A stretch of 64,000 nucleotides of DNA from contig OZ024743.1 in assembly GCA_964016885.1 (NCBI GenBank), positions 218,116,001 through 218,180,000 of the forward strand, read 5' to 3'. The stretch's first letter is position 1. Every line of letters starts with the position of its first letter. The stretch is from Eledone cirrhosa. Taxonomy: Eukaryota. The notes under the pieces are model-generated. The model was not told where the DNA came from. It made no database searches and saw only the letters and a program-made list of their open reading frames with translations. Below are positions 8,141-58,137 of the stretch, piece after piece. The position numbers were made by a program, and so were the translations under genes.

Positions 8141-9722
8141 CGGTAGACAGGTTGGCGTATATTTTTGGCTGGTTATTGTGTGGGGTGTGGTTGTGGTGTT
8201 GTTGTTTATGGTAGTGGCGTTTGTTGTGGTGTGGTGGATGTGTTGGTGGTGTCAAGTCCATGGGGAGGTATATATCTAGACACTCTTAGTCTGACAAATA
8301 CGTTGTATATATACGCACATGCGCATATGTACTGACATATATACATACACACCTATATACACACACATACACGCGCCCACATACATCCACACGTACATAT
8401 ATCTATATGCATATATATGCACACACATATATATGCTCATGCGCGCGTGTGGATATATAGAGAGAGGGGGTGGCGTAGTATAAAGATAGAGGGAGGGGGA
8501 GAGCCAATGGAGATGGTGTTGTACATATAGACATACACATACATACGCACACACAAATACACATATAGATATACACACATACACGTACACACAGATATAC
8601 ACATACACATATATATATACACACACATATATACATATATATATATATATATATATATATATATATATATATATATATATATATATATATATATACGCAT
8701 ATATATAAACGCACACATATATAAAAATACTTACAAACAGACACACACACTTGCGTTGGCTCGAGAGTAAAGGTATGTGTTGGCGATGTTAATGAAGTTA
8801 ATGAATGTTGAGGTATGGAGTTGTGCCTTGTGATGGCGGTGGTGGAGTTGTGAGCGACAAAAATATACAGGATCGAATAATACGATGGGTTACAGGTTAA
8901 AAGGTGACATAGGGAACACGGGGGAATAAAAGATTGTGGACGTATAGCGATGTGATGTGGTCATGGTGGTGGTGGTAGTGATGGTGTGATATGTTCAACA
9001 ATATGATTACATGATCAGATGTTACGGTGGGTTACAGGGTAAAGCATAGGGAGAGGGCAGATGTAACACAGTCGTTCTGGGAGTGATTGACATATAAATA
9101 TATCTAAAATAAACATATGAAACAATCACAGGGGATAATTTGTAAAAGTGTGTAAGCACACATCGTTATGTAGGTAACTAAAAAAGTTTAACTAGAACTT
9201 CAAAAATATATACCTTATAAATTGATTAATCTTCCTTTTATATATTCCATTAAAGAAATATAATTCACCAATTAATCGATTAGTAAACGACAGTAGCTAG
9301 ATCCTGGATTTTCATCAAGGAAGGGGACTAACCATCTGTGTTTACGCATCAAATTCAAATCAGCGACTGGCCAGTAACACGTGCTGTATTTATTAAAAGT
9401 ACACACATCGTACCAGCTTCGTCTCAGTGGTGTGAATAGGGTTATCGACAACTAGAAATAGCAGTCAAGTCCTTTCAACTTAGTTAGCTCTACAATTAAG
9501 GGGCTGTATTTATGATTTTGGATATATATATATATTTACTTAATTTTGGATATATATATATATATATATGTAGAAGAGATATTTAATTTGTTGGAAATCC
9601 AACAAATATAGATGTTTATAACTGATTCAGAGCACTTGACAGTTTTCTGGGGTAAGTATTCAATGATATTAAATAAATGGAAACTATTTATAAAACCATA
9701 TTTATTTTTATTAAACATTTTG

Positions 9723-9784
9723 TATTTTATCTGATGATAGCGTACCAAAATTTTTGGTACCCTTGAAATATATATAATAGAATA
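9723..9784 (+). ncRNA. Minimal type I hammerhead ribozyme motif (TATTTTAT family)
   Basis: UAUUUUAU-CUGAUGA-stem II (GUACCA/UGGUAC)-GAAA-UAUAUA-UA-AUAGAAUA. The first stem II pair is U-U in this copy. Confidence 0.7.
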
Positions 9785-9851
9785 AATATGGTTTTATAAA
9801 TATAGTTTCCATTTATTTAATATCATTGTATGTATATATATATATATATAT

Positions 9852-10042
9852 AATTGTTTCTACTTTAGGCACAAGCCCAGCAATTATCCAGTGCATTACT
9901 GGTTCTTTATTTTATCGACCCCGTAAGGATGAAAGGCAAAGTCAACCTCGGCGGGATTTGAACTCAGATCGTAAAGGGACGTAACTATGCTGGAAAGCAT
10001 GGCGTCCGACCCTCTATCGATACTGCCAATCCACCGCCCTTA
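9852..10042 (-). mobile_element. tRNA-derived SINE, dominant ~190-bp family
   Basis: Head GGGCGGTGGATTGGCAGTATCG, box B GAGTTCAAATCCC, core CTTTGCCTTTCATCCTTACGGGGTCGATAAAATAAAG, tail GTAGAAACAATT. Confidence 0.88.
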
Positions 10043-10609
10043 TATATATATATATAATATCTTGGCACGAGTATAACAATGATTATATAACATATTAAGG
10101 ATAGTAAAGGGAAGTTGTCGAGGAAGGGAGATGGCAAGATGGTATCGTTAGGTTTATGGACGTTACGTGCATCAGAATGGCATAGGATGGAAACAATCGA
10201 AATCAGCTTGCAGAGGTATTCGCATTGCATGAGGACAGATAATGCTGTTGTTGTTAGCAGTGTTGGTGGTGGTGGTTGTGATAGGGGCGGGTGTTTGTGG
10301 TGGGGGCGATTGGGGTGGAGTAATGGAGGGATGTTGGTAGTGATGGGGGGGTTGATAGGGGGTAATGGTGGTGTTGGTGGTGTTGGTGGTGGTGGTGGTG
10401 GTAGTGGTGGTAATGGTGGTGGTGTTGGTGGTGAAGGGGGGTGTTAATGGTGGTGGTAGTGGTGGTGATGGATGTGGCGTTGCTATTGTTGTTCTTGTTG
10501 TTTATTTGGTTGTTGTTTTTTGTTTGTTTGTTTTTTGTGGTGGTGGTGGTGGTAGTTATGGTAATAGTGATGTTGCTGTTGTTGTTTTTGGCGGTGGTGA
10601 TGTTGGTAC

Positions 10610-11706
10610 TGGTGCTGGGGCTGGTTGTGGTGGTGGTGCTGGTGGTGTTAGTGGTGCTGGTGGTGCTGGTGTTAGTGGTGGTGGTGTTTGTGGTGATGGT
10701 GCTGGTGCTGCTGCTTGTGCTGGTGCTGGTAGTATTAGTGGTGGTGGTGGTTGTGGTGTTAGTGGTGGTGATGCTGGTGGTGCTGGTAGTGCTGGTAGTG
10801 CTGGTTTTAGTGGTGGTGGTGTTTGTGGTCGTGGTGGTGCTGGTGCTGCTGCTTGTGCTGGTGCTGGTAGTATTAGTGGTGGTGCTGGTGGTGGTGGTGG
10901 TGGTGGTGGTTGTGTTAGTGGTGGTGGTGCTGGTGGTGCTGGTGGTGCTGGTGGTGCTGGTAGTGCTGGTTTTAGTGGTGGTGGTGTTTGTGGTGGTGGT
11001 GGTGCTGGTGCTGCTGCTTGTGTTGGTGCTGGTAGTATTAGTGGTGGTGGTGGTGGTGGTGGTGGTGGTGGTTGTGTTAGTGGTGGTGGTGCTGGTGGTG
11101 CTGGTGGTGCTGGTGGTGCTGGTGGTGCTGGTAGTGCTGGTTTTAGTGGTGGTGGTGTTTGTGGTGGTGGTGGTGCTGGTGCTGCTGCTTGTGCTGGTGC
11201 TGGTAGTATTAGTGGTGGTGGTGGTGGTGGTGGTGGTGGTGGTTGTGTTAGTGGTGGTGGTGCTGGTGGTGCTGGTGGTGCTGGTGGTGCTGGTGGTGGT
11301 GGTAGTGCTGGTTTTAGTGGTGGTGGTGTTTGTGGTGGTGGTGGTGCTGGTGCTGCTGCTTGTGCTGGTGCTGGTAGTATTAATGGTGGTGGTGGTGGTG
11401 GTTGTGTTAGTGGTGGTGGTGCTGGTGGTGCTGGTGGTGCTGGTGGTGCTGGTAGTGCTGGTTTTAGTGGTGGTGGTGTTTGTGGTGGTCGTGGTGCTGG
11501 TGCTGCTGGTGGTGCTGGTGTTAGTGGTGGTGGTGTTTGTGGTCGTGGTGCTGGTGCTGCTGCTTATGCTGGTGATGGTAGTATTAGTGGTAGTGGTGGT
11601 GGTGGTGGTGTTAGTGGTGGTGCTGGTGGTGGTGCTGTTGCTGGAGCTGGTGCTGCTGCTGCTGCTGCTGCTGCTGGTAGTGTTAGTGGTGGTGGTGGTG
11701 GTGGTG
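10610..11706 (+). repeat. GGT-derived higher-order minisatellite (about 6 units of 120-150 bp); reads as a Gly/Ala/Cys-rich ORF
   Basis: Repeating unit GGGVCGGGGAGAAACAGAGSISGGGG..CVSGGGAGGAGSAGFS. Nearly every triplet ends in T. Confidence 0.85.
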
Positions 11707-56585: not shown

Positions 56586-57482
56586 AAATAATGTGTGTGT
56601 GTGTGTGTGTGTGTGTGTGTGTGTGTGTGTGTGTGTGTGTGTGTGTGTGTGTGTGTGTGTGTGTGTGTGTGCATCATACTTTGAAAGGGTCATGCTGCCA
56701 ATAAAAACAGGCGCAACAGTTGATTTTCACTTCAATCAATTTATTATAAACTTCCAGCTGGTTAGTTTAATAATTGGATGGGTGTTTATTTGTTTATTGT
56801 CAAAACTCTTTCGTCATATATTCCGTGACCTCCTCGGTGACTAATTTGTTATTAGAGCAAACTCTGGGCATAAATCGGGGTGAAAAGTGGCGTAAACTAA
56901 TATACTTAATAACAGCACAGTAACGAAGGTAATGAATTTTCTACACTCTGTCCGAAAAATTATTTTGCGTATAGAACTATATTCAAACCAACTCTTGATT
57001 GTGTATATATCTATCTATATTTCTATCTCTCTCTCTCTATATATATATATATATATATATATATATACCTATCATTATATGTTTATTAGAGATAATTTAA
57101 TAATTCTTTCTACTTTTTGGCACAAGGCCAGCAATTACTCAGTACATTAGAGATAATTTAATAATGAACGCTGGTAAATGTTAATGTGTGCAATTATCGC
57201 AATGATTATTGATATGCAGGTGTATTAGACTAAAATTCTATCATGTGCTATAGCCACGATAATCGATTGATTGAAACCATTTATACAAGCATACACATAA
57301 AACGCATATATATATAATATATACACACACACACACACATATGTATATATATATATATATATATATATATATATATATATATATATATATATATATATAT
57401 AAATTGATGAGCAGAACAAACAAACATTAAACAATCCTTTAAATAAATAAATAAATAATTTAAATATCTACCTGTTCATAAT

Positions 57483-57561
57483 GCTATTACCGGCGGTTTC
57501 CATCCACAAAAGATTGGAAATTCGAAGAATTTCCAACGGAAAGTAGATTTCATCAGATAGC
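57483..57561 (-). ncRNA. Type I hammerhead motif with an extended stem II
   Basis: Minus strand GCUAU-CUGAUGA-AAUCUAC..UUGGAAAUUC(UUC)GAAUUUCCAA..GUGGAUG-GAAA-CCGCCGG-UA-AUAGC. The first stem II pair is an A-G mismatch. Confidence 0.68.
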
Positions 57562-58004
57562 TATTTCCTTTCTATAGGACATACGTCCCATGGTCCGTAA
57601 ATATAATGCCAACTACCAGCTCGTATGAGTTATGGCCGTTAAAGTGACCCACACATGACCCGGCCGCTAGAGCAAGCGGGAATAGTATAGACTTGTTGAT
57701 GGCTTGGCTGCTAAAAAAAATAGCAGTAAGGAACAACGAATTTTTTTCTCTACATAGATTGGAGAATGTATAAAAATGAGGTAAATATCTTACTGAGTGC
57801 TAAGTACCCATAGAGATATATAGGGTGTCTATAATATAATTGTTGTTCTATGGTACTAATTTGAGATACCATAACTATAAAAATTGATGAGCAGAACAAA
57901 CAAACATTAAACAATCCTTTAAATAAATTTGGTTGGAAGCTCCCGGACATGGTCGCATTCTTTAAGGGTATGTCAATATTTGTTTATAAAACTGATCTAT
58001 ATTA

Positions 58005-58069
58005 TATTTTATCTGATGAGAGCGCACCATAATTTGCTTTTGTTTCCTTGAAATATCTATAATGAAATA
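58005..58069 (+). ncRNA. Decayed hammerhead motif (TATTTTAT family)
   Basis: UAUUUUAU-CUGAUGA-GAG..CUU-GAAA-UAUCUA-UA-AUGAAAUA. The downstream sequence matches 9781-9830. Confidence 0.6.
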
Positions 58070-58137
58070 AATATGGTTTTATAAATATAGTTTCCATTTG
58101 TTAATATATTGTATATATATATATATTTATATATATT

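What the first reader, a model, noticed from the sequence alone, without database searches (positions are those of the whole stretch)
9661..58110. TATTTTAT hammerhead family keeps structure while its stem II loop varies freely
Seen: four copies (9723, 25515, 35831, 58005) share an 8-bp stem I, a UA cleavage context and a C-C mismatch at the fourth position of stem II. Stem II pairs 2-3 differ between subfamilies yet stay complementary (GA/UC versus AG/CU). Stem I changes are G-U wobbles (AUAGAAUA, AUGAAAUA). Loop II differs between copies. Inference: this is covariation, so the RNA fold was selected in the source elements.
Basis: partly seen in the sequence, partly recalled or inferred. Interest (0 to 1): 0.7.

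Follow-up and report, generated by a model that had tools for sequence, protein, structure and literature searches.

The report
Penelope retrotransposon hammerheads, one unpaired C
The four motifs are truncated end-pieces of a known kind of jumping gene (Hydra-clade Penelope-like elements) that has left over 66,000 hammerhead-ribozyme motifs in this genome; their base pairs changed together in the active lineages, so the fold was likely under selection, they are predicted to cut only as pairs, and the one odd feature is a nearly always kept cytosine whose partner varies, so it is not a fixed C-C pair.

Summary
All four motifs parse as type I hammerheads (8-bp stem I, CUGAUGA/GAAA core, AUA site, C opposite C at stem II step 4). 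They are 5'-truncated pseudo-LTR ends of Hydra-clade Penelope-like elements (PLEs): 66,603 motifs genome-wide, and pLTR-ORF-pLTR copies carry the Hydra protein motifs. Changes fixed between 22 subfamilies kept pairing 34 times and broke it 3 times; private post-insertion changes kept it 18 times and broke it 56 times. Three corrections: (1) stem I shows no two-sided change; (2) 'loop II' is mostly a covarying stem II extension, and copy 58005 is decayed; (3) the mismatch is not C-C specific: the 5' C is kept (95.6%), its partner is C, U or A, and no G-partner subfamily was seen. Stem III is an 8-nt palindrome that itself covaries, so cleavage is likely dimeric. None of 60 ORF-start copies begins at the cut site and 39 read through it, fitting a re-ligated circular or an uncut template. 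Covarying PLE hammerheads are already in print, and this scan found the family before on other DNA. No cleavage or RNA data.

The parts
9723..9784 (+). Hammerhead copy 1 (TAGC/CCTT subfamily, U.U at stem II pair 1); predicted cut after 9776
9704..9831 (+). 5'-truncated PLE end that carries copy 1, running into (TA)n
   Evidence: about 95% to L017, L033, L090
9570..9712 (-). Inverted partner: element 3' end plus about 90-nt tail, ending in (TA)n
25515..25583 (-). Hammerhead copy 2 (GGAC/CTCT subfamily); predicted cut after 25523
25467..25741 (-). 5'-truncated PLE end (about 275 bp) that carries copy 2, ending in (TA)n
25595..25640 (-). Upstream hairpin (ACUA...UAUGUC base), present in two of the three main lineages; moderate support
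   Evidence: RNAalifold gave no consensus
35831..35897 (+). Hammerhead copy 3 (GGAC/CTCT subfamily); predicted cut after 35889
35798..35943 (+). 5'-truncated PLE end that carries copy 3, ending in (TA)n
35672..35797 (-). Inverted partner of copy 3: 3' end plus tail
58005..58069 (+). Hammerhead copy 4, decayed (distal stem II and stem III palindrome broken by private changes)
57946..58112 (+). 5'-truncated PLE end that carries copy 4, ending in (TA)n
   Evidence: 96% to L193

Best explanation
The four motifs are type I hammerhead sequences in the pseudo-LTR of Hydra-clade Penelope-like retrotransposons, left here as 5'-truncated stubs in (TA)n, and their pairs changed in a structure-keeping way between subfamilies, so the fold was likely selected in the active source elements. 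Shown: location 1.0-2.0 kb behind and about 0.35-0.6 kb before an RT-GIY-YIG ORF; invariant core; covarying stem II and stem III palindrome. Inferred mechanism: a transcript of pLTR-ORF-pLTR holds two motifs, whose 8-nt palindromes would pair to build stem III in a dimer (the 2-bp hairpin alone costs +4.7 kcal/mol) and cut after AUA at both; stem I would then hold the unit's two ends together for ligation; the circle holds one motif and would be stable; reverse transcription primed in (TA)n about 48 nt past the junction would run through it and could exceed one turn, rebuilding the pLTR. The unpaired C at step 4 is likely a kept base inside a tolerated 1x1 loop (contact or hinge); the partner is not specific.
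For: 66,603 full motifs. PLE RT/EN remnants in 12 of 30 and 20 of 30 loci fetched with the upstream DNA of the two window subfamilies; tandem units in L242, L245, L266; RWx, DKT, CxCX5C, CxxC, CxH match the Hydra definition. 59 of 103 copies run into (TA)n within 60 nt of stem I, 33 continue into the tail. Keep/break 34/3 between 22 subfamilies vs 18/56 private (p=6e-12; conservative reconstruction 31/3). Core and stem I are the same in lineages whose ORF halves are 52% identical. Palindrome AUAUAUAU / AUAUGUAU / AUGCGCAU stays self-complementary through a two-sided change. 0 of 60 ORF-start copies begin at the cut site and 39 read through it for 25 to over 1000 nt.
Against: No cleavage assay and no RNA-level evidence. 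Read-through of the cut site fits an uncut template equally well. Pair 1 of stem II is rarely the canonical G-C (2 of 31 rows), and one subfamily spread with U.U and one with A.C there. Published minimal PLE hammerheads cut slowly even as dimers. On the 31-row alignment the count of pairs with a two-sided change (11) did not beat shuffles (94/500 reached it). The subfamily tree rests on about 150 columns, so event counts (e.g. 5 at one distal pair) may be inflated. No Rfam hammerhead model matched.
Confidence: 0.7

Rival explanations
1. The C mismatch is a frozen accident. An ancestral C-G pair lost its G, the lengthened stem II made this harmless, and it persisted because repair needs a rare transversion.
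For: In the published Hydra table the same step is C paired with G in 15 of 25 families (my reading of File S2). 0 of 34 pair-keeping subfamily changes involve a transversion. The partner drifts C to U and C to A. Other positions (stem I pairs 1, 5, 6) are also invariant.
Against: The 5' C itself, which a common C-to-U transition would change, stayed C in every subfamily checked while neighbouring stem II pairs changed 2-6 times each. A transversion did become fixed at the partner (C to A, about 70 of 100 listed copies of a 2,381-copy group), yet C-G occurs only as 217 scattered copies. Both points rest on few events.
Confidence: 0.4
2. The fold is kept mainly as a structural signal (protein binding, template pairing of the two pLTRs, or priming) and is seldom cut; copies come from uncut read-through transcripts.
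For: Every genomic 3' end lies past the cut site, none of 60 5' ends stacks at it, pair 1 of stem II is loose, and low in vitro activity is reported for such motifs.
Against: The catalytic core, A15.1-U16.1 and the NUH site are invariant across subfamilies, which is more than a binding scaffold should need; 5' pLTRs of over 1 kb are easier to regenerate from a circle than to inherit through serial 5' truncation (inference).
Confidence: 0.2
3. There is no selection: the apparent covariation is two founder sequences plus purine/pyrimidine strand bias.
For: True of the four window copies taken alone; private transitions keep pairing 16 of 32 times.
Against: Single-sided subfamily transitions keep pairing 23 of 25 times, plus 11 two-sided changes; slid-register controls fall from 89% to 33-49% paired.
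Confidence: 0.03

Closest known systems
Hydra clade of C-terminal EN+ Penelope-like elements and their hammerheads (Craig et al. 2021, PMC8557442; read: passages, section 11, supplement parts 1, 2 and 52), including Hydra-1_Obim
   Same: Single RT + GIY-YIG ORF with RWx, DKT, CxCX5C, CxxC, CxH; (TA)n targets; 5' truncation, inverted partners, tail; type I hammerhead near the 3' end; loose first pair of stem II (U.U, G-U or G-C); palindromic stem III.
   Different: The 26 Hydra rows of File S2 list an unbroken stem II of 3-7 bp and a stem III of 3-4 bp; here stem II is 3 bp, a C.H 1x1 loop and a further helix, stem III is 2 bp plus a 4-nt palindromic loop, stem I is 8 bp with a predicted extension; units are 3.3-4.5 kb with 1-2 kb 3' UTRs (published: generally under 3 kb); tail about 90 nt; tens of thousands of copies.
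Minimal hammerheads (min-HHR) of metazoan PLEs (Cervera and de la Pena 2014, PMC4209133; read parts 1-2 of 4, supplements not seen)
   Same: [quoted passage not shown]
   Different: Their consensus has an extra base after position 9 and a conserved G10.1-C11.1; this family has neither in most subfamilies. A bulge inside helix II is described for D. virilis, a C.H 1x1 loop is not in the parts read.
Small dimeric hammerheads of PLEs (Lunse, Weinberg, Breaker 2017; not held, seen only as cited in PMC6765202 passages)
   Same: Type I, very short palindromic stem III, dimer cleavage.
   Different: Could not be compared; it may already include a mismatched stem II variant.

Membership tests
Hydra-clade PLE | Single ORF, RT then C-terminal GIY-YIG endonuclease | tested here: met
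   ORFs of 738-821 aa in L232, L242, L245; domains called from motifs and tblastn to a sibling PLE; Pfam gave no hit for the sibling's fragments
Hydra-clade PLE | RWK-type motif and DKT instead of DKG | tested here: met
   RWT (RWI, RWR in other copies) and DKT; third residue differs from RWK
Hydra-clade PLE | CxCX5C linker; CxxC and CxH flanking; no CCHH | tested here: met
   CNCRIKNKC, CNLC, CLH; absence of CCHH read by eye
Hydra-clade PLE | (TA)n insertion, pLTR tandems, inverted 5'-truncated partner, tail | tested here: met
Hydra-clade PLE | Falls in the Hydra clade of an RT tree | not tested
   No tree with published proteins was built; protein search returned 8 unnamed hits of 33-40% identity
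Type I hammerhead ribozyme | Core CUGANGA, GAAA, A15.1-U16.1, NUH site | tested here: met
Type I hammerhead ribozyme | Stems I and II pair and covary | tested here: met
   stem II 7 of 9 pairs with two-sided change; stem I 99.6% paired but only one-sided G-U changes
Type I hammerhead ribozyme | G10.1-C11.1 pair | tested here: not met
   A-U 15, G-U 11, G-C 2, unpaired 3 of 31 rows; natural U.U cases are known (PMC3088659 passage; File S2)
Type I hammerhead ribozyme | Stem I-stem II tertiary contact (loop-loop or pseudoknot) | tested here: inconclusive
   Loop II vs stem I flank complementarity not above mismatched pairings (p=0.11 and 0.07); non-canonical contacts not testable
Type I hammerhead ribozyme | Rfam hammerhead model match | tested here: not met
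   No hammerhead family at E<=10 on copy 3, none at gathering score in 6 loci
Type I hammerhead ribozyme | Self-cleavage | not testable with these tools
   needs a bench assay
Dimeric minimal PLE hammerhead | Unstable, palindromic stem III | tested here: met
   hairpin +4.7 kcal/mol, self-duplex -2.2 to -10.5; palindrome 98.4% paired

The most novel reading that the evidence does not exclude
This lineage evolved a new hammerhead architecture in which an unpaired C three pairs from the core docks on the sequence-invariant A-U stem I, replacing the usual loop-loop contact, and works with an upstream covarying hairpin to time dimer cleavage and re-ligation into a circular template that the element's reverse transcriptase copies for more than one turn. 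The 66,000 genomic copies would then be a natural record of that cycle.
Probability: 0.15. Interest if true: 0.65.

Novelty: new variant of a known kind. Interest (0 to 1): 0.3.

Why it matters
Whether PLE hammerheads do anything for the element is still open (Craig et al. 2021 say they may simply parasitize PLEs). This family gives a direct population-style answer that the fold was selected in source lineages, a ladder of natural G-U intermediates, near-intact young elements to assay, and a map of copy ends showing that the template spans the cut site. The class of element and the covariation of PLE hammerheads are already published, so the gain is incremental; only the kept unpaired C and the upstream hairpin go beyond what I could find.

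Tried and rejected
Rfam scan of the whole window was swamped by microsatellite matches to miRNA models; focused scans gave no hammerhead hit. The PLE ORF in L093 lies 3.4 kb from a motif but belongs to a sibling family with a different end and unrelated repeats between: rejected as the parent. A shifted stem II register (extra base after position 9, giving G10.1-C11.1) fits only the AGGC/CCCC subfamily and breaks the distal helix in the others (by eye). Loop II-stem I pseudoknot: not above controls. RNAalifold found no consensus for the upstream hairpin; the hand-named basal helix was 92% paired with only 2 two-sided changes, and 8 of 16 sequences had z below -1. Expression: no RNA holder listed; three contig runs laid show presence only. 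The clusters of 5' ends at -373 and -636 come from tandem repeats in the reference 3' UTR and are not real ends. No PLE ORF remnant in the window itself. Lunse et al. 2017 is not held, and supplements of Cervera 2014 were not read; either may already show the mismatch. Paper searches listed no description of this family; the Octopus vulgaris repeat paper PMC13282606 has no occurrence of hammerhead or ribozyme (passages).
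Full report
Observation. Each reads stem I (8 bp), CTGATGA, three stem II pairs, C opposite C, a longer insert, GAAA, TATRTA-like hexamer, TA, stem I. A looser scan found 5 hammerhead-like motifs in the window and none in 30 locally shuffled windows. Pair 1 of stem II is U.U in 9723 and G-U in the others. Copy 58005 departs from its subfamily at three scored pairs and has a broken palindrome, so it is a decayed copy, and part of the 'free' loop variation among the four is decay after insertion.

What it is. The window lies in a 3.0-Gb unnamed animal genome. 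A 21-nt pattern has 25,554 exact hits; the full motif has 63,702 hits with C at step 4 and 2,901 without; reversed controls are 0. Copies share a 3' end about 48 nt past the predicted cut, run into (TA)n (59 of 103 copies from the loci), or continue into a tail of about 90 nt (33 of 103), are 5'-truncated, and often have an inverted partner, as window copies 1 and 3 do. Walking upstream from the two window subfamilies reached PLE RT or endonuclease remnants in 12 of 30 and 20 of 30 loci. Tandem units motif-ORF-motif occur in L242, L245 and L266; the 'tail' is simply the start of the 5' UTR. The ORF has RWx, DKT, CxCX5C, CxxC and CxH and lacks CCHH, which is the definition of the Hydra clade in Craig et al. 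2021 (PMC8557442 section 11); that paper lists a member from Octopus bimaculoides with a different hammerhead.

Covariation test. I parsed 267 motifs from 258 loci and the window (not a random sample: 60 loci were picked by similarity to two subfamilies and 30 for lacking the C). One with a short deleted insert was dropped; 225 of 266 fell in 24 groups seen at two or more loci. Two groups were dropped (an internal-deletion group and one made only of copies picked for lacking the C). On a tree of the other 22, changes at 17 scored pairs kept pairing 34 times (11 two-sided) and broke it 3 times; a reconstruction that favours unpaired ancestors gave 31 and 3. The U.U subfamily of copy 9723 was merged into a neighbour and would add one break. 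Changes private to one locus kept pairing 18 times and broke it 56 times. Because strands are purines against pyrimidines I repeated this on transitions alone: 23/2 against 16/16, p=0.0012. On a 31-row alignment (27 representatives and the 4 window copies) 89% of cells paired and 60 cells had two-sided changes against 24.6 in shuffles (0/500), but the number of pairs with such a change (11) was reached by 94/500 shuffles; stem II had 7 of 9 such pairs, stem I 0 of 8.

The C mismatch. The 5' C is present in 95.6% of motifs; the listed exceptions are scattered mutants of the usual subfamilies. Its partner is C in most subfamilies, U in the ATGCGCAT lineage and A in about 70 of 100 listed copies of a 2,381-copy group (counted by eye: 94 keep the C; partner A 70, C 29, T 1). 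The repaired C-G form has 217 copies, and the 100 listed are spread over all subfamilies. It is therefore a kept C in a 1x1 loop, not a C-C pair. Against over-reading: repair needs a transversion and none of the 34 pair-keeping changes used one; and in the published Hydra table the same step is a C paired to G in 15 of 25 families by my reading, so the C may be old and the mismatch a tolerated loss. None of the 26 Hydra rows shows an interrupted stem II.

Mechanism. Stem III is two pairs and a 4-nt loop, +4.7 kcal/mol as a hairpin, but the 8-mer is self-complementary in all lineages (AUAUAUAU, AUAUGUAU, AUGCGCAU; duplex -3.2, -2.2, -10.5). The central four bases can only pair between two copies, so their covariation points to a dimer, as described for PLE hammerheads (PMC4209133 parts 1-2; review passages PMC6765202). 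To ask whether a cut linear RNA is the template I mapped the 5' ends of the 30 best matches to the ORF start in each of two lineages (they include the query loci and favour young copies). None of 60 begins at the cut site (the one scored 0, L327, continues upstream by eye); 39 read through it into 3' UTR sequence for 25 to over 1000 nt and 21 start at +48 to +162. A cut-to-cut linear RNA would lack the 48 nt found at every 3' end and would stack 5' ends at 0. The template is thus either a re-ligated circle, as Cervera and de la Pena proposed, or uncut RNA. I favour the circle because the core is invariant and long pLTRs need regenerating; this step is inferred.

Constrained folds show stem I extending past an internal loop, with different sequences in different lineages, and a hairpin with an ACUA...UAUGUC base just upstream in two of three lineages. 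Its support is moderate.

Comparison and novelty. Hammerheads in PLE pLTRs, their covarying families, the dimer and circle models and the Hydra clade are published. Five paper searches listed no account of this family or of the kept C, but Lunse et al. 2017 was not held and the 2014 supplements were not read. Earlier notes of this scan describe the same family and the same C on other DNA of this genome; I consulted them after reaching the Hydra assignment and the covariation counts. Verdict: a real, ordinary PLE pLTR hammerhead family with a modest structural variant; interest 0.3.

Noticed in passing
window 7425-7480 (+) and 13450-13509 (-): Another minimal hammerhead family: CTGAGGA core, short stem II, stem III a loopless palindrome (AACAATTGTT); the 7435 copy has an inverted partner and ends in (TA)n.
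   Followed up: partly
window 59027-59065 (-): Small hammerhead with U.U at stem II pair 1, TGC-GAAA-GCA stem II and palindromic AGTACT stem III, much like the published Hydra motifs; step 4 is a C paired with G. Repeated in other loci.
   Followed up: partly
window 14610 (+) and 37391 (-): CTGATGA...GAAA-containing repeat with a degenerate stem III; possibly decayed hammerheads of a further family.
   Followed up: no
window 29246-29660: (TA)n-flanked repeat whose end is a fold-back around a CTGAGGA core, likely the junction of two inverted pLTR pieces.
   Followed up: no
L093 4640-6699 (-), L099-L128: A sibling Hydra-type PLE family with many near-intact ORFs (up to 727 aa) and a pLTR in which the core reads CCGATGA with a long insert.
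   Followed up: partly
L245 783-810, L266 4247-4270, L262: A conserved small hairpin (GCTC...GAGC) in the 5' UTR just past the point where tails end, in three lineages.
   Followed up: no
positions -40 to +48 around the cut site: Only 1 of 60 5' ends falls in this interval, and 5 of 30 in the GGAC lineage fall at +48 to +61, next to the element's 3' end, as one full turn of a circle would give; small, biased sample.
   Followed up: partly
L082, L028, about 190-230 nt upstream of the motif: Polypyrimidine tract followed by CAG, resembling a 3' splice site in the pLTR.
   Followed up: no
window 504-2837 (-) and 14802-16187 (+): ORF fragments resembling non-LTR retrotransposons (AP-endonuclease-like and RT C-terminal-like, by eye).
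   Followed up: no
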